Positions 11,928 through 15,160 of a stretch of 32,098 nt of DNA are shown one piece after another (position 1 is the stretch's first letter; each line of letters opens with the position of its first letter). The notes below the pieces were generated by a model that was not told where the DNA came from, searched no databases, and was given only the letters and a program-made list of their open reading frames with translations. The DNA comes from a virus: the IMG/VR virus record IMGVR_UViG_3300045988_100140, positions 1-32,098 of that record. One strand, given 5' to 3'. Position numbers and translations under genes: made by a program.

Positions 11928-11958
11928 CGTGTGGGTTCAAGTCCCATCTTCCGCACCA
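11928..11958 (+). other. attP core candidate: 3' fragment of a tRNA gene (T-arm, 3' acceptor strand, discriminator A and CCA)
   Basis: gtggg-ttcaagt-cccat forms a T-arm, followed by cttccgc-a-cca. No matching 5' acceptor strand (gcggaag), D-arm or anticodon arm lies upstream, so this is only a fragment. It is adjacent to the integrase. Confidence 0.65.
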
Positions 11959-11966
11959 ACGAGAAA

Positions 11967-12008: not shown

Positions 12009-12031
12009 AAACTCACAAAATAACTCACTTT
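12009..12031 (+). repeat. AAACTCACAAA plus TAACTCACTTT direct repeats (candidate arm-type sites, P' arm)
   Basis: They share the AACTCAC core and the orientation of 11812..11834. The second copy is identical to the P-arm copies and overlaps the int stop codon. Confidence 0.55.
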
Positions 12032-13110
12032 TTTCCCTGCTGTCCAAGAATTGATGTAAACACACTATCAAGAGCACTGGTTATTTGCCGATCCATGCCG
12101 GATACAGCGTGGCCATAAACGCCGAATGTGTCCATACTCTTGGAGTGCCCGACCAATTTCTTTACCCAACCCTCCGGGAGGGACTGTGCAAGGGAAACGA
12201 AAGTATGGCGCAGCTCGTATGGTGTCGTTTTCGGAATCCCGTTTGCTTTGCAATATCTTTGGAAAAACTTGCGATAGGTTTCTGTTGTCGGCATTTGGAA
12301 CAGATACAGGCCGTTTGACTTGGATGCTTGATCTTTTACAATCGCCTCTGCGATTTCGCCCAAATAAACGCTGCGTATCGCATTTTCGTTTTTGCCTGTA
12401 GTAATTTCATTATCCTCGTTTATCGACCGCCTTACCTCCAATCTGCCCTGTTTAAAATCATTCCGCATGATGCCGCGCAATTCCCCAGGCCGCAGACCGG
12501 TCAAAACCTCAAGGCGATAAGCATTTATATACGGGTCTTTTACCAATTTCCCCTTGTAGATCGTCGTATCAACGGAGAAAAGCGTTACAATATCCTCCGG
12601 CTGCAAAATGTTGCGAACGCCAACGGGAGCGCCTTTGGGAATTGTTATGTCCTCCGGGGCAAATCCGGTTATTTTCATTTTCCGCAGATATTTGCAGAAA
12701 GAAACCATGTCGGCACGGATACTTTGAAGATACTTTTTCGACAATTTCCCGTTATTGTAGGCATAGTCGATAACCTTTTGCAAAATCCCATCGCAAAGTG
12801 CATCTGCCTTTAGGTGACCTATCCTTGGGTCAACCCATGTTTTCCAGCGGCTTTCCTGTGGCCGCCAATTCGATTGGGAAGTCCGGATTTTAAGCTGCTC
12901 CATATAGCTTTCGTGCAGCTCTGATAGGCGCAGCTTCGTGCCGCAGATGCCAGATGCCAGCCAGTCATCTGCTTTTCGGTTCGCTTCTCTCTGCCCTTCC
13001 CTTCCAGGTCGACTGCTTGTAAATGTTTTTCTTATGCCATCTTTCTGCACGGCGATCTGCCAGCGGTTCTGCTTCTCAAGCCACTTTGCCGTATTTGTCC
13101 TTTCTTTCAT
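12025..13110 (-). CDS. int: Tyrosine recombinase / phage integrase
   Basis: 361 aa. The N-terminal arm-binding-like region is MKERTNTAKWLEKQNRWQIAVQKDG.... Catalytic motifs are ...LRPGELRG..., ...YELRHTFVSLA... and ...LVGHSKSMDTFGVYGH. SD caggaggg. Confidence 0.95.
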   Translation of the reverse strand: MKERTNTAKWLEKQNRWQIAVQKDGIRKTFTSSRPGREGQREANRKADDWLASGICGTKLRLSELHESYMEQLKIRTSQSNWRPQESRWKTWVDPRIGHLKADALCDGILQKVIDYAYNNGKLSKKYLQSIRADMVSFCKYLRKMKITGFAPEDITIPKGAPVGVRNILQPEDIVTLFSVDTTIYKGKLVKDPYINAYRLEVLTGLRPGELRGIMRNDFKQGRLEVRRSINEDNEITTGKNENAIRSVYLGEIAEAIVKDQASKSNGLYLFQMPTTETYRKFFQRYCKANGIPKTTPYELRHTFVSLAQSLPEGWVKKLVGHSKSMDTFGVYGHAVSGMDRQITSALDSVFTSILGQQGKK

Positions 13111-13128: not shown

Positions 13129-13160
13129 ACCGCCCTCGTTTCCGGGGGCGGTGTTTTTTT
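13129..13160 (+). terminator. Hairpin plus T7 tract (canonical only on the + strand) between int and the upstream lysogeny gene
   Basis: accgccc...gggcggt stem followed by gttttttt on the + strand. On the minus strand it reads as an A-run, the hairpin, then ttgtctatc. Confidence 0.5.
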
Positions 13161-13701
13161 ATGCCATTACATCATATACAACCACGCCGTTCATAATCAT
13201 CAAGAGGGTGTTATCCTCATTGGCGTCGTTGACCACTGTGACTGTTACATATTTCCCGGTTACGCCAAACGCCTCTACTGCATCAACAGCGGAATTGCAA
13301 AGAGTGACCATGCTATCACGCATTTTTACCCATGGCTCATATGTATCATCATAGCCAGATGCTTTTGCTTGAGCAATTTCGGCAGCAGCGCCATCGGATT
13401 TTACATAGATTGTAATGCTGCCATCGTCATAGTCGACATCATATTCAACCGATGTTCCGTCTGAATTCTTATCGAGAATAGCTTTTAGGGACGCTGCAAT
13501 AACAGACATATCAACGTCACTGTTTTTCTCCTCTTGCTGTTGCTGCTGGTTTTGCTGATTGTCTTGTTTGTCTTTGCCCTTTTCTCCACCGGCAAGCGCT
13601 CCGATGATTGCAATGACGATAACGATTAGGATTATTGCCGTTACCGTCGTTTTTTTCTTCTTTGGCTTGATCTCCGGTGTTGTTTTCTCCATTTCCTCCA
13701 T
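13159..13701 (-). CDS. Membrane-anchored hypothetical protein (N-terminal TM helix, Gln/Glu-rich linker, extracytoplasmic domain); superinfection-exclusion candidate
   Basis: 180 aa. KKKKTTVTAIILIVIVIAIIGALAGG is a single TM helix, followed by a QQNQQQQQEE linker and a ~120-aa domain. SD ggaggag. The gene lies between int and the repressor genes. Confidence 0.7.
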   Translation of the reverse strand: MEEMEKTTPEIKPKKKKTTVTAIILIVIVIAIIGALAGGEKGKDKQDNQQNQQQQQEEKNSDVDMSVIAASLKAILDKNSDGTSVEYDVDYDDGSITIYVKSDGAAAEIAQAKASGYDDTYEPWVKMRDSMVTLCNSAVDAVEAFGVTGKYVTVTVVNDANEDNTLLMIMNGVVVYDVMA

Positions 13702-13725
13702 AGTCTTCTCCTCCAGTACTGATTA

Positions 13726-13747
13726 TTGTACACTTTACTGTGTACAA
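13726..13747. promoter_or_regulatory. Perfect inverted repeat TTGTACAC-N6-GTGTACAA (operator candidate) abutting a minus-strand TATAAT
   Basis: ttgtacactttactgtgtacaa. A minus-strand TATAAT lies at 13752..13747. A second palindrome, agaacatctgttct, lies at 13760..13773. Confidence 0.5.
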
Positions 13748-13772
13748 TTATATTTGGAAAGAACATCTGTTC

Positions 13773-14183
13773 TTAATCCCGAATTAACCCGTAGTTAAGG
13801 TTCTTTGCATCGATCAGGACGAGGTATAAGATCATCATCGCCAGCAGGACGAATATAACTACAAAAAGCATGTTGGACAGCTTCCGGCGCTGGCGCACCT
13901 GCTCTTTCAGCACCTCTATCATTTCTTCGCTGCTCTGGCTGTCGGCTTTGTTATAGACTTCCCGAACAAAATATTTATCGAGAGATATGTGCAGCGCTTG
14001 ACAGATGGAAGCAACGAGAAAAAGACTCGGATTTTTGGTCGGCTCTGAAAGTAGCCGAGAGATCGTCCTTTCGACCGTCCCGGCGTTATCGGCTAAGTCC
14101 TTGTGGGTCATGCCCTGCTCCTGCCGTTTTGCGGAGACCTCCAGTAAGAAGTTATCCCAATTCCTTTCTTCGTCAGAATTCAC
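13773..14183 (-). CDS. XRE-family HTH regulator with a C-terminal transmembrane helix (membrane-tethered)
   Basis: 136 aa. GTG start follows aggag. The HTH is ...QGMTHKDLADNAGTVERTISRLLSE.... The C-terminal hydrophobic helix is MLFVVIFVLLAMMILYLVLI, followed by a short tail. Confidence 0.8.
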   Translation of the reverse strand: MNSDEERNWDNFLLEVSAKRQEQGMTHKDLADNAGTVERTISRLLSEPTKNPSLFLVASICQALHISLDKYFVREVYNKADSQSSEEMIEVLKEQVRQRRKLSNMLFVVIFVLLAMMILYLVLIDAKNLNYGLIRD

Positions 14184-14286
14184 AAACTCATCTCCTGTTT
14201 TTTGTTACCGGACACTTTTGCCCGAAAAACATGACAGATTTTGCGCCGAAACCGCCGAATTTGGCGGTACAGATTGATAATGCGAT

Positions 14287-14309
14287 CTGTTACAATTGAA
14301 TTGTAGCAG
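14287..14309. promoter_or_regulatory. 23-bp near-perfect palindrome (operator candidate)
   Basis: ctgtTACAATTgAATTGTAgcag is symmetric about 14298 with one symmetric mismatch pair. It lies in the intergenic region upstream of the membrane-tethered XRE gene. Confidence 0.5.
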
Positions 14310-14371
14310 ATATCGGTTGAATTTGGAAGAATTTTTATTTGACAATAATCGACAAAAGAGGAGGAACACCA

Positions 14372-14515
14372 ATGGATTGGAACATGGCGTTAGAACAGCT
14401 GATTTTACGAATGACTCCTGAACAATGCGAAAGCGCTATTTCTCAAATAGCAGAGAAATGGCCTTATATACTTTCTCGGCTTCCTCCGGAGAAAGAGACC
14501 GGGAAAGATCCATAA
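14372..14515 (+). CDS. Possible 47-aa small ORF (MDWNMALEQLILRMTPEQCESAISQIAEKWPYILSRLPPEKETGKDP)
   Basis: A strong SD (agaggagg) lies 7 nt upstream of the ATG. The ORF is absent from the ORF track because it is under 60 aa. Its 3' ~80 nt are antisense to the C-terminus of the repressor gene. Confidence 0.3.
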   Translation: MDWNMALEQLILRMTPEQCESAISQIAEKWPYILSRLPPEKETGKDP

Positions 14516-14798
14516 GCTTTTTGTTGGCAGGATGCAGCTCACCATCGGTGGGCTGTTTTTCTTTGCCCAAAAGATAATCCACGCTTACACCGAAGTAATC
14601 GGCAACTTTTTGCAATGTTGCCTGCCTTGGAATTGTTCCCTTACTCCATCGCGTAACCACAGAACGCATAAAACCCAGTTCTTCAGCAACGGCTGATGGG
14701 GATTTCCCAATTTTATTACAAAGAGCAACATAGTTAATATAAAACAAACGCAACACACCCTTTTTGTGCAAATGGTAGAAAGTAAACAAAAGGTACAT
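14436..14798 (-). CDS. cI-like repressor, XRE-family HTH
   Basis: ...LCNKIGKSPSAVAEELGFMRSVVTRWSKGTIPRQATLQKVADYFGVSVDYLLG is a classic XRE HTH. It is divergent from the Cro-like gene. The first ~17 codons look non-native, so the true start may be the internal TTG at 14747 or a neighbouring GTG/TTG. Confidence 0.8.
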   Translation of the reverse strand: MYLLFTFYHLHKKGVLRLFYINYVALCNKIGKSPSAVAEELGFMRSVVTRWSKGTIPRQATLQKVADYFGVSVDYLLGKEKQPTDGELHPANKKLMDLSRSLSPEEAEKVYKAISLLFEK

Positions 14799-14805
14799 TT
14801 CCGCC

Positions 14806-14834
14806 TTGACTGTTGCGTATGTTTACACTATAAT
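14806..14834 (+). promoter_or_regulatory. Early rightward promoter (PR-like): TTGACT-17 nt-TATAAT
   Basis: ttgact (14806..14811), a 17-nt spacer, then tataat (14829..14834). It lies upstream of the Cro-like gene and the whole early operon. Confidence 0.7.
14812..14828 (+). promoter_or_regulatory. Operator-like 17-mer O1 (GTTGCGTATGTTTACAC) filling the PR spacer
   Basis: It matches the reverse complement of 14920..14936 at 14 of 17 positions. Confidence 0.45.
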
Positions 14835-14906
14835 GAAAACATAAGCAACAAGCGCAACGCAAAGCGGGCACTTAAGGTGCCATACTTCATTATCCCTCGC
14901 AAGGAC

Positions 14907-14935
14907 ATGATAACACTTTGTGTAAACTTTTGCAA
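14907..14935 (-). promoter_or_regulatory. Candidate leftward repressor promoter: TTGCAA-17 nt-TATCAT on the minus strand
   Basis: -35 at 14935..14930 and -10 at 14912..14907, read on the minus strand. It faces the PR-like promoter. Confidence 0.45.
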
Positions 14936-14936
14936 C
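14920..14936 (-). promoter_or_regulatory. Operator-like 17-mer O2 (minus-strand GTTGCAAAAGTTTACAC)
   Basis: An inverted copy of O1 (14/17). It overlaps the -35 and spacer of the candidate leftward promoter. A weaker third copy lies at 14842..14858. Confidence 0.45.
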
Positions 14937-14965
14937 ACAAATATAAAGAAAGGAGAAAAGTTTAG

Positions 14966-15160
14966 ATGCCTGCACAATGGACCGGCGATGTGGTCGGCAA
15001 GATGCACAACAACAGAATCACAATGGCACAGCTTGGAGAAAAGCTCGGCGTTGGAAAGGCGTATGTTTGTGCGATACTAAACGGCCGCCGCAGCCCAAAG
15101 GACGCAGAACAGCGCTTTAAAGCTGCACTGGACGAGCTTATTAAGGAAAGGGAGGAGTAA
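14966..15160 (+). CDS. Cro-like small HTH regulator
   Basis: 64 aa with SD aaaggag. The HTH is ITMAQLGEKLGVGKAYVCAILNG. It is the first gene of the rightward operon. Confidence 0.7.
   Translation: MPAQWTGDVVGKMHNNRITMAQLGEKLGVGKAYVCAILNGRRSPKDAEQRFKAALDELIKEREE

What the first reader, a model, noticed from the sequence alone, without database searches (positions are those of the whole stretch)
13159..14309. Lysogeny module contains a membrane-tethered XRE regulator and a membrane-anchored protein, each preceded by strong palindromes
Between int and the cI-like repressor lie two additional minus-strand genes.
- The first (13773..14183) has a canonical XRE HTH at the N-terminus, followed by a single C-terminal TM helix (MLFVVIFVLLAMMILYLVLI) and a 12-aa tail.
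- The second (13159..13701) has an N-terminal TM anchor, a poly-Gln/Glu linker and a ~120-aa outward-facing domain.

Their upstream regions carry three palindromes:
- a 23-bp near-perfect palindrome (14287..14309)
- a perfect TTGTACAC-N6-GTGTACAA repeat abutting a minus-strand TATAAT (13726..13752)
- agaacatctgttct (13760..13773)

A DNA-binding repressor fold anchored to the membrane is unusual for a phage immunity region. It suggests a membrane-coupled signal, such as release by proteolysis, sensing of envelope stress, or sensing of incoming phage DNA injection. The partner protein is in the position where Sie/Ltp-type exclusion proteins sit in Firmicutes phages.
Basis: partly seen in the sequence, partly recalled or inferred. 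Interest (0 to 1): 0.62.

Follow-up and report, generated by a model that had tools for sequence, protein, structure and literature searches.

The report
Membrane-anchored regulator upstream of phage integrase
A gut phage carries a DNA-binding regulator anchored in the cell membrane by its tail, from a large unstudied family that sits just upstream of the integration enzyme in many unrelated phages; the neighbouring "partner" gene is swappable surface-protein cargo, and one of the three palindromes matches the host DNA-damage (LexA) switch site.

Summary
Both minus-strand genes, both hydrophobic segments and all three palindromes are at the stated coordinates and are conserved in about 75 related gut phages.

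1. **The regulator.** The 136-aa XRE protein belongs to a broad, unannotated family: an HTH, a long helix, one membrane helix and a short tail with the motif D..N...G[WFYL][IVF]R. In at least 8 phage lineages the gene lies just upstream of the recombinase (tyrosine or serine type), on the same strand. In three lineages its end overlaps the recombinase start. The best reading is a membrane-bound, self-regulating regulator of the integrase operon.
2. **The 180-aa protein.** It is not a dedicated partner. It occupies a hypervariable slot that holds at least 10 unrelated membrane, lipoprotein or secreted cargo genes.
3. **The 14-bp palindrome.** It is an exact Gram-positive LexA box (GAAC-N4-GTTC). 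It is the only one in the genome and is kept in 77 of 77 sequences. It lies inside the conserved promoter for the cargo and integrase genes, which argues for SOS control rather than constitutive exclusion.
4. **The 23-bp palindrome.** It consists of two opposed extended -10 elements, one for the regulator and one for a conserved divergent 47-codon gene.

I found no evidence for signal-dependent release of the regulator. This scan had already noted the same kind of protein on another phage (e1-1970259).

The parts
13773..14183 (-). Tail-anchored XRE regulator (HTH-TM), 136 aa. GTG start at 14181-14183, RBS AGGAG at 14192-14196 (read on the minus strand).
   Evidence: ORF list. Pfam HTH_3 above the gathering score. 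86-96% identical in 76 IMG/VR loci. Member of a broad family with a conserved tail motif.
13977..14132 (-). XRE-type helix-turn-helix domain (residues 18-69).
   Evidence: Pfam HTH_3 E=1.3e-7. The family profile matches solved DNA-binding XRE domains best: prophage Lp1 protein 11 (3b7h, 4e-11) and SinR (2e-9). No RodZ match.
13812..13871 (-). Single C-terminal membrane helix (residues 105-124), preceded by RQRRK.
   Evidence: Kyte-Doolittle 19-residue mean 3.3. AlphaFold models one continuous helix over residues 74-134. Positive-inside bias across the family.
13776..13811 (-). 12-aa external tail DAKNLNYGLIRD carrying the family signature D..N...G.[IV]R.
   Evidence: D125 and G132 are the only invariant columns in a 36-sequence alignment at 21-71% identity to the window protein. 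The motif directly follows a membrane helix in 58 of 147 representative hits.
14285..14311 (.). 27-bp palindrome made of two opposed extended -10 elements: TGTTACAAT (14288-14296, plus strand, towards the 47-codon ORF) and TGCTACAAT (reverse complement of 14300-14308, towards HTH-TM).
   Evidence: Kept in 74 of 75 loci, with one symmetric double change. In relatives at 45-71% identity the two TGnTAnnAT elements persist while the outer symmetry is lost.
14210..14223 (.). Candidate HTH-TM operator in its own 5' leader: GGGCAAAAGTGTCC on the minus strand (GGACA-N4-TGTCC in most relatives), about 40 nt before the start codon.
   Evidence: Same position in L153, which has two copies of TGACAAAYTTGTCC 22 bp apart. 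The clade with a different recognition helix has CCCC-N4/5-GGGG twice instead. No other good copy in the window.
14372..14515 (+). Divergent 47-codon ORF with a GAGGAGG RBS; its 3' end overlaps the 3' end of the cI-like gene.
   Evidence: Intact in 74 of 75 loci in three alleles that share a ..M[TS]xEQ.. core. Small divergent ORFs also precede distant HTH-TM genes in L093 (47 aa) and L090/L092 (35 aa).
13747..13776 (-). Predicted promoter for the cargo and integrase genes: TTAAGA-N18-TATAAT. The -35 overlaps the HTH-TM stop codon.
   Evidence: Promoter scan, 10 of 12 matches. TTAAGA-N17-19-TATAAY is present in 75 of 77 sequences, whatever the cargo.
13760..13773 (.). LexA (Cheo/SOS) box AGAACATCTGTTCT, with core GAAC-N4-GTTC at 13761-13772, overlapping the -35 and spacer of the cargo/integrase promoter.
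   Evidence: The only exact GAAC-N4-GTTC in 32 kb. Present in 77 of 77 sequences and in the 45-71% relatives L153, L154 and L079. Consensus as given for B. subtilis and Clostridium in PMC4234289.
13726..13747 (.). Operator-like inverted repeat TTGTACAC-N6-GTGTACAA, immediately downstream of the TATAAT (about +1 to +20).
   Evidence: GTAC-N10-GT[AC]C at fixed spacing in 76 of 77 sequences, with variable central bases, for almost all cargo types and all cI alleles.
13159..13701 (-). p180: membrane-anchored surface protein. Membrane helix at residues 19-38 (13588-13647), Gln/Glu linker, alpha/beta ectodomain (13162-13518). One of many alternative cargo genes.
   Evidence: Present in 33 of 76 loci as two alleles (97% and 68%). 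The slot holds at least 10 unrelated clusters. A lipoprotein homologue lies in a chromosomal gene cluster.
12025..13110 (-). Tyrosine integrase, last gene of the leftward unit.
   Evidence: Pfam Phage_integrase and PHROG 1. The hairpin at 13129-13152 has its T-run only on the plus strand, so it need not stop leftward transcription.

Best explanation
The region is the leftward arm of a temperate gut phage. The gene order is: small 47-codon gene, divergent promoter, tail-anchored XRE regulator (HTH-TM), swappable surface-protein cargo (here p180), integrase.

**HTH-TM.** It is a membrane-bound DNA-binding regulator of the transmembrane-transcription-regulator kind, but with only a 12-aa conserved external tail. 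It most likely binds palindromic sites in its own leader and promoter region. By doing so it sets the level of its own transcription unit, which in many lineages directly includes the recombinase.

**The second promoter.** In this clade a second promoter sits between HTH-TM and the cargo. It carries a host LexA box and a further operator-like repeat. Cargo and integrase are therefore probably raised by DNA damage.

**p180.** It is independent accessory cargo exposed on the cell surface, not a partner of the regulator.

**What is shown and what is inferred.**
- Shown: architecture, family, conservation, synteny, and the sequence match to the LexA consensus.
- Inferred: DNA binding, self-regulation, LexA control, and any role of the membrane anchor.
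For: - **HTH-TM is the constant part.** It is 86-96% identical in 76 loci, while the neighbouring cI and cro alleles range from 41 to 98% and the cargo varies. It is therefore not the immunity repressor and not tied to p180.
- **The family is broad.** There are 226 representative clusters at E<=1e-3. Many proteins of 120-200 aa align over their full length. D125 and G132 are invariant, and the charge distribution indicates an N-in topology.
- **The HTH resembles DNA-binding XRE domains,** such as SinR and the 434 repressor.
- **Synteny with recombinases in independent lineages:**
  - the window clade, with a tyrosine integrase or a serine recombinase (L154);
  - L090/L092 and L093-95;
  - all 17 motif hits in IMG/VR. 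These form four groups, two next to tyrosine integrases and two next to large serine recombinases.
  - In L093, L140 and L143 the recombinase start overlaps the HTH-TM stop.
- **Lineage-specific palindromes precede each HTH-TM gene**. The site about 40 nt before the start changes from GGACA-N4-TGTCC to CCCC-N4/5-GGGG together with the recognition helix, ERTISRLL to EKNISKFF.
- **LexA box.** It is exact, unique in the genome, kept in 77 of 77 sequences, and lies in the spacer of a conserved promoter.
Against:
- The leader of the HTH-TM mRNA also folds unusually well as RNA (z=-3.1). The window's variant of the -40 site keeps pairing as G-U, so these palindromes could be RNA hairpins rather than operators.
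- The operator motif was defined after seeing the data.
- The 27-bp palindrome is largely explained by two -10 elements and need not be a protein site.
- Some family members lie in chromosomal contexts without a recombinase, so the link to integrases is not universal.
- The reason for the membrane anchor and for the invariant tail is unexplained.
Confidence: 0.55

Rival explanations
1. HTH-TM is itself a prophage-encoded defence or exclusion factor. A DNA-binding head held at the membrane would capture or sense incoming phage DNA, or trigger membrane damage. It would sit in the accessory-gene zone next to the integrase like the other cargo.
For: It lies in the zone where surface and accessory genes accumulate. 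The invariant membrane-proximal tail suggests a function in or at the membrane beyond anchoring. Chromosomal copies lie near tRNA genes and lysis-gene remnants.
Against: Unlike the real cargo, it is the constant element of the module. It has lineage-specific palindromes in front of its own gene, as self-regulating repressors do. Its reading frame overlaps recombinase genes in three lineages. I did not run the PADLOC library, so a match to a known defence family is untested.
Confidence: 0.12
2. The membrane anchor makes HTH-TM a signal-responsive switch. An envelope or infection signal, or regulated proteolysis (for example by FtsH or a site-2 protease), would release or destroy the DNA-binding head and so couple integrase and cargo expression to membrane state.
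For: The tail motif (D, N, G, R) is more conserved than the HTH across the family, which suggests a specific external or interfacial interaction. Tail-anchored topology is supported. Known transmembrane regulators work this way (PMC10269533).
Against: There is no sensor domain, only 12 external residues. No conserved protease or partner gene lies nearby. The neighbouring membrane protein is not conserved. No data on processing exist.
Confidence: 0.15
3. The XRE-like head does not bind DNA. It would be a protein-binding module held at the membrane, as in RodZ, which binds MreB. Alternatively it would tether phage DNA for replication or segregation, as phi29 p16.7 does, rather than regulate transcription.
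For: RodZ shows that an XRE-type HTH followed by one membrane helix need not be a transcription factor (established knowledge, not tested here). The size and module order mirror p16.7 in reverse.
Against: The family profile finds DNA-binding repressors (SinR, 434 cI/Cro, CylR2, HipB) and no RodZ chain in the PDB. Pfam assigns HTH_3, and HTH_25 is not among the hits listed. The gene lies in the lysogeny arm, not among the replication genes.
Confidence: 0.08
4. The palindromes in the HTH-TM leader and downstream of the cargo promoter act as RNA structures (RBS sequestration or transcript stabilisers), not as protein operators, and HTH-TM acts on targets elsewhere.
For: The 119-nt leader folds at -34.4 kcal/mol, z=-3.1, with 0 of 200 shuffles as good, and the fold pairs the RBS and start codon. 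In the window's copy of the -40 site, the A-to-G change keeps a G-U pair in RNA.
Against: L153 has two copies of the same 14-mer exactly 22 bp apart, and one (GACAAATTTGTC) leaves no loop for a hairpin. RNAalifold gives only -5 kcal/mol with a poor alignment. With the predicted start site, the left arm of the 13726-13747 repeat would not be in the cargo transcript. There is no Rfam match.
Confidence: 0.2

Closest known systems
Transmembrane transcription regulators (one-component, membrane-bound: ToxR, TcpP, CadC; BcrR of Enterococcus faecalis is the XRE-type example), as surveyed in PMC10269533
   Same: A cytoplasmic N-terminal DNA-binding domain joined to membrane helices. The helix-turn-helix domain is the commonest head in that survey.
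   Different: Those proteins have a periplasmic or intramembrane sensor (BcrR has four helices). This family has one helix and a 12-aa conserved tail, is often only 120-150 aa, and is phage-borne next to recombinases. None of these features is mentioned in the passages of that paper that I searched.
Phage and ICE XRE repressors (434 cI/Cro, SinR, ImmR of ICEBs1, prophage Lp1 protein 11, PDB 3b7h)
   Same: The head domain matches at E 4e-11 to 1e-3. It lies in a lysogeny arm and has palindromes in front of its own gene.
   Different: It has no soluble oligomerisation or peptidase domain. It is membrane-anchored, and it does not vary with the immunity type of the phage.
LexA-controlled promoters in mobile elements (integron integrase intI; phage 186 tum; CTXphi; GIL01). 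Named from established knowledge; the LexA consensus is from PMC4234289.
   Same: A host SOS box overlaps the promoter of a recombinase or accessory operon.
   Different: Here the box lies between a phage regulator gene and a variable surface-cargo slot followed by the integrase, and it is combined with a second operator-like repeat at the start site. LexA binding is untested.
Superinfection-exclusion genes between integrase and repressor in Firmicutes phages (Ltp of TP-J34, Sie2009 of Tuc2009, orf203 of Sfi21)
   Same: p180 shares the position, the size (about 180 aa), the N-terminal anchor and the external domain.
   Different: There is no homology in the ectodomain. PHROG Sie hits cover only the anchor and linker (residues 4-80, E 2e-5). 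The fold has no significant PDB match. The predicted promoter is LexA-controlled rather than constitutive.
   Same: An XRE-HTH, coiled-coil and membrane-helix protein directly upstream of the phage recombinase, next to swappable membrane cargo.
   Different: It is a different genome and different cargo (HIRAN-like).

Membership tests
XRE / Cro-C1 helix-turn-helix (Pfam PF01381 HTH_3) | Profile match above the curated gathering score | tested here: met
   32.0 bits against a cutoff of 23, residues 18-69.
Transmembrane transcription regulators (TTR) | Cytoplasmic DNA-binding domain plus at least one membrane-spanning helix in one polypeptide | tested here: met
   HTH_3. Hydropathy 3.3 over residues 105-124. 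K+R 3.7 before and 0.9 after the helix in 58 relatives. This is prediction only.
Transmembrane transcription regulators (TTR) | Extracytoplasmic or intramembrane sensor domain | tested here: not met
   Only 12 residues follow the helix. They are conserved (D125, G132 invariant) but do not form a domain.
Transmembrane transcription regulators (TTR) | Binds target DNA and regulates transcription while in the membrane | not testable with these tools
   The only support is indirect: lineage-specific palindromes before the gene.
Gram-positive LexA (Cheo/SOS) box | GAAC-N4-GTT[CT] sequence | tested here: met
   GAACATCTGTTC at 13761-13772 is the only exact match in the window. Consensus from PMC4234289.
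Gram-positive LexA (Cheo/SOS) box | Overlaps a promoter and is conserved in relatives | tested here: met
   It lies within TTAAGA-N18-TATAAT. The box is present in 77 of 77 sequences and the promoter in 75 of 77. It is also present in relatives at 45-71% identity.
Gram-positive LexA (Cheo/SOS) box | Bound by host LexA; gene induced by DNA damage | not testable with these tools
   The host is known only as a Clostridia-like gut bacterium. No expression data were available.
Sie/Ltp-type superinfection exclusion proteins (for p180) | Membrane- or lipid-anchored protein with an external domain, encoded between integrase and repressor | tested here: met
Sie/Ltp-type superinfection exclusion proteins (for p180) | Sequence or fold relationship to a characterised Sie or Ltp protein | tested here: not met
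   PHROG 4980 and 8545 hits cover only residues 4-80. Best PDB fold match E=0.013. The BFVD matches are uncharacterised proteins. No tblastn match among 50,697 deposited phage records.
Sie/Ltp-type superinfection exclusion proteins (for p180) | Expressed from the prophage and blocks infection | not testable with these tools
   The LexA box in its promoter argues against constitutive expression.
RodZ (HTH_25, membrane helix, C-terminal domain; binds MreB) | RodZ-type head and extracytoplasmic C-terminal domain | tested here: not met
   No RodZ chain among 45 PDB matches of the family profile. HTH_25 is not among the Pfam hits listed. There is no C-terminal domain.

The most novel reading that the evidence does not exclude
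The tail-anchored XRE family is a dedicated, membrane-coupled controller of phage recombinases in gut Clostridia phages. Its invariant 12-aa external tail (D..N...G.[IV]R) would read a signal at the outer face of the membrane, or govern turnover of the protein. Integration and excision, and the display of surface cargo, would then be tied to the state of the cell envelope in addition to the SOS signal read through the LexA box.
Probability: 0.15. Interest if true: 0.8.

Novelty: new variant of a known kind. Interest (0 to 1): 0.55.

Why it matters
How temperate phages of gut Firmicutes control integration, excision and their surface-modifying cargo is largely unknown, and most of these phages are uncultured.

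- **A testable candidate.** A regulator family that is constant across immunity types, linked to both tyrosine and serine recombinases, and anchored in the membrane is a concrete candidate for that control.
- **A possible new minimal design.** It would also be an unusually small form of membrane-bound transcription factor: no sensor domain, only a conserved 12-residue tail.
- **Direct predictions.** The LexA box predicts that DNA damage, for example from antibiotics, switches on the integrase and whichever surface protein sits in the cargo slot. The cargo slot is a ready catalogue of candidate lysogenic-conversion or exclusion proteins.

Tried and rejected
1. **Small-ORF mimicry.** I tested whether the 47-codon protein mimics the juxtamembrane helix of HTH-TM, as SinI mimics SinR. 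The profile-profile comparison gave 0.3% probability. Rejected.
2. **Known RNA element in the leader.** Rfam found only tRNAs, and RNAalifold was weak.
3. **Fold assignment for the p180 ectodomain.** The best PDB match was E=0.013 (PA3611, type II secretion pilotins). The BFVD matches are unnamed proteins. No assignment.
4. **Deposited phages.** There is no p180 match, and HTH-TM matches only in four unannotated faecal phage records.
5. **Host identification.** The genome collection gave only two loci, one in a Helicobacter pylori assembly (probably contamination) and one in an Absicoccus MAG. A metagenome contig with the integrated prophage shows Clostridia-like neighbours.
6. **Family survey across a phylum.** A sample of 301 genomes from the phylum of the Absicoccus MAG gave few full-length hits. 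I had no handle for a Clostridia genome.
7. **One shared motif for all three palindromes.** GTACAATT occurs once, and GGACA-N4-TGTCC occurs only at 14210 above chance level. No common operator was found.
8. **Palindrome 13726-13747 as p180-specific.** My first count suggested this. Rejected: its GTAC...GTAC core accompanies nearly all cargo types.
10. **Broad alignment as a locus query.** I replaced it with a DNA pattern for the tail motif.
Full report
**Setting.** The window is a complete 32,098-bp virus record with terminal repeats. It is in the circular attP form. In order, it carries:
- lysis genes up to 11814;
- a tRNA 3' fragment near 11930-11960 (sequence; ARAGORN finds no whole tRNA there);
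- the integrase at 12025-13110(-);
- p180 at 13159-13701(-);
- the XRE protein at 13773-14183(-);
- a small plus-strand ORF at 14372-14515;
- a cI-like HTH gene at 14436-14798(-), with no Pfam domain beyond the HTH;
- a repeat-rich switch region at 14740-14940;
- a cro-like gene at 14966-15160(+).

A relative integrated in a 137-kb metagenome contig is followed by a LytTR two-component system and a clostripain-type peptidase. The host is therefore a Clostridia-like gut bacterium.

**Check of the observation.**
- The 136-aa ORF starts at a GTG behind an AGGAG. It matches Pfam HTH_3 above the gathering score (32 against 23 bits).
- Its residues 105-124 have a mean hydropathy of 3.3, and 12 residues follow.
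- p180 has a hydrophobic segment at residues 19-38 (mean 3.0), a Gln/Glu-rich linker, and a domain that AlphaFold models with pLDDT about 90.
- Homologues of that domain occur behind a lipoprotein signal (P0103, LVAC) and behind a zinc ribbon plus a membrane helix (P0104, P0105). This fixes the domain on the outside of the cell.
- The three palindromes are real. Only 12 perfect inverted repeats with 8-nt arms, at 9 distinct places, occur in the whole window.

**The XRE protein is the constant element; p180 is not its partner.**
- A scan of IMG/VR gave 76 related loci. The XRE protein is 86-96% identical in all of them apart from one 47% relative (L075).
- The adjacent cI-like and cro-like genes fall into several alleles (41-98% identity).
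- p180 is found in only 33 loci, as two alleles of 97% and 68%.
- Clustering the genes between the XRE gene and the recombinase gave at least 10 unrelated families. All have membrane helices, lipoprotein signals or secretion signals. Some loci carry a different integrase.
- The slot is therefore a cargo position, and p180 is one occupant.
- A lipoprotein homologue of p180 lies in a chromosomal cluster of seven co-directional genes, nearly all without a recognised domain.
- The ectodomain fold has no significant match in the PDB (best E=0.013). It has only weak matches to unnamed viral proteins. No relative exists among deposited phages. PHROG "superinfection exclusion" hits cover only the anchor and linker.

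**A broad family with a signature tail.**
- An exhaustive HMMER search of 1.8 billion representatives found 226 clusters at E<=1e-3. Many are proteins of 120-200 aa that align with residues 17-135 of the query.
- They share the HTH, an "NPS" turn, a long helix, one hydrophobic helix, and then D..N...G[WFYL][IVF]R, often ending in Y.
- In a 36-sequence alignment at 21-71% identity to the window protein, the only invariant columns are D125 and G132 of that tail.
- Among 147 representative hits, 115 have a hydrophobic segment and 58 have the motif directly after it. K+R averages 3.7 in the 12 residues before the helix and 0.9 after it, so the head is cytoplasmic.
- Neither Pfam nor NCBIfam has a model for anything beyond the HTH.
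- The family profile matches solved DNA-binding XRE domains best: prophage Lp1 protein 11, SinR, CylR2 and 434 repressor. No RodZ chain is among its 45 matches.
- AlphaFold models the part after the HTH as one helix over residues 74-134, with low confidence in residues 76-85.
- I found no paper that describes such a protein in a phage. The general class of transmembrane transcription regulators is reviewed in PMC10269533.

**Linkage to recombinases.** The family sits upstream of a recombinase, on the same strand, in many independent lineages.
- P0222, P0297 and P0309 are 24-32% identical to the query. In other prophages they lie after a cI-like gene and a small divergent ORF, and before a tyrosine integrase, with 0-2 small membrane genes between.
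- P0046 (45% identical) is followed by one gene and a large serine recombinase.
- A DNA pattern for the tail motif found 17 places in IMG/VR. All 17 are family members in four further groups. Pfam confirms tyrosine integrases for two groups and large serine recombinases for the other two.
- In L093, L140 and L143 the recombinase start overlaps the end of the XRE gene, which implies one transcription unit.
- Two common chromosomal members (P0258, P0274) have no recombinase. They lie near tRNA genes and are divergent from a 154-156-aa protein that itself begins with an XRE-like HTH. They may be remnants of mobile elements.
I checked the arrangement independently here.

**The palindromes re-read.**

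*(a) 13760-13773.*
- Its core, GAACATCTGTTC, is an exact match to the LexA operator of Gram-positive bacteria: GAAC-N4-GTTC in B. subtilis and GAACnnnnGTT[CT] in Clostridium (PMC4234289).
- It is the only exact match in the window.
- It lies across the -35 and spacer of a predicted promoter, TTAAGA-N18-TATAAT, whose -35 overlaps the stop codon of the XRE gene.
- The box is present in 77 of 77 sequences and the promoter in 75 of 77, whatever cargo follows. Both persist in relatives at 45-71% protein identity, including the one with a serine recombinase.
- Other family lineages lack it.

*(b) 13726-13747.*
- It starts right after the TATAAT, so it would cover the transcription start.
- Its outer GTAC...GT[AC]C bases keep a fixed spacing in 76 of 77 sequences, while the centre varies. 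It does not follow the cI allele or the cargo type.
- It looks like an operator, but its binder is unknown.

*(c) 14285-14311.*
- It is kept in 74 of 75 loci, with one symmetric double change.
- Its two arms read TGCTACAAT towards the XRE gene and TGTTACAAT towards the small ORF. These are two opposed extended -10 elements, 3 bp apart.
- In relatives at 45-71% identity these elements persist (TGCTATGAT and TGGTATAAT), while the outer symmetry is lost.
- The palindrome is therefore largely a compact divergent promoter, though a protein site is not excluded.

**Candidate operators of the XRE protein.**
- About 40 nt before the start codon, most relatives have GGACAAAAGTGTCC. The window has GGGCAAAAGTGTCC at 14210-14223.
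- L153 (71% identical, recognition helix ERSVSRLL against ERTISRLL) has TGACAAATTTGTCC and TGACAAACTTGTCC, 22 bp apart.
- The 45% clade (helix EKNISKFF) has CCCCGTACGGGG and CCCCAATTTGGGG instead.
- Other lineages have their own palindrome arrays before the gene: TGCAATTTAAATTGCA repeated in L143, a 22-bp palindrome in L092, and a 24-bp palindrome (one mismatched pair) in L087.
- This is what self-regulating XRE repressors look like. However, the motif was chosen after seeing the data, and the leader also folds well as RNA (z=-3.1, with the RBS paired). Both readings remain open.

**The small divergent ORF.**
- The 47-codon ORF at 14372-14515 has a strong RBS and is intact in 74 of 75 loci. 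Its three alleles share a ..M[TS]xEQ.. core.
- Small divergent ORFs also precede distant family members.
- It has no family match and no profile similarity to the XRE protein.
- It belongs to the same promoter unit, but its role is unknown.

**Synthesis.**
- The best-supported picture is a leftward unit in which a membrane-anchored XRE regulator controls its own expression and, through co-transcription, that of the recombinase.
- In this clade, a second promoter with a LexA box adds DNA-damage control of cargo and integrase.
- p180 is surface cargo. An exclusion or receptor-masking role remains possible. If the LexA box works, p180 would be made mainly after induction, which fits protection of progeny or of the induced cell better than standing immunity of the lysogen.
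- The purpose of the membrane anchor and of the invariant tail is the open question.

**Limits.** All functional statements are inferences from sequence, conservation and gene order. 

Noticed in passing
window 14339-14360, and L153, L154, L075, L079 at the aligned position (alignment A7): A block TGTCGA[AT]TATTGTC, about 45-60 nt upstream of the HTH-TM -10 element, is invariant in all five aligned sequences. This includes relatives at 45% protein identity and a locus where the small ORF beyond it has been replaced. It is more conserved than the coding sequence, and its binder or role is unknown.
   Followed up: partly
window 14436-14798 (-): The cI-like repressor has only an HTH and a short tail, with no S24 peptidase domain, so RecA-stimulated self-cleavage is unlikely. 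The only LexA box in the genome is at the cargo/integrase promoter, not at an antirepressor. How the prophage is induced is unclear.
   Followed up: no
L078 (NZ_JAHXLB010000019.1, Helicobacter pylori strain SHZY19 contig_19): A 23.6-kb contig of an H. pylori assembly encodes an 88% identical HTH-TM protein. This is most likely contamination of that assembly by a Firmicutes phage or prophage, not an H. pylori element.
   Followed up: no
L083 5251-5721(-) and L087 4326-4790(-): Chromosomal family members are divergently paired with a 154-156-aa protein that begins with its own XRE-like HTH. A palindrome lies between the two genes (near-perfect 24-bp in L087, one mismatched pair; a weaker one in L083), which looks like a miniature two-repressor switch near a tRNA gene.
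   Followed up: partly
L080 10794-11171 and relatives (cargo cluster c12; cluster c25 in L075 shares the N-terminus): One alternative cargo gene encodes a secreted protein with a His-rich motif, HIDHSTGEYHYHHGYPAHQH, followed by a C-terminal membrane helix. It may be a metal-binding surface protein.
   Followed up: no
L144 3342-3956 (reverse-complement coordinates) and other loci of the 46-kb phage group: An unrelated phage group, with its own HTH-TM lineage, carries cargo built like p180: a basic N-terminus, a membrane helix, an NQQQQEEQSEE linker and a folded domain. There is no sequence similarity to p180 (no BLAST hit at E<=10). The architecture appears to have arisen more than once.
   Followed up: partly
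window 13129-13152: A GC-rich hairpin between p180 and the integrase has its T-run only on the plus strand. It would terminate rightward transcription into p180 but not leftward transcription into the integrase.
   Followed up: no
window 11930-11960: A tRNA 3' end (T-arm, acceptor strand, CCA) without a 5' half lies between the lysis genes and the integrase, consistent with an attP core that targets a host tRNA gene.
   Followed up: no
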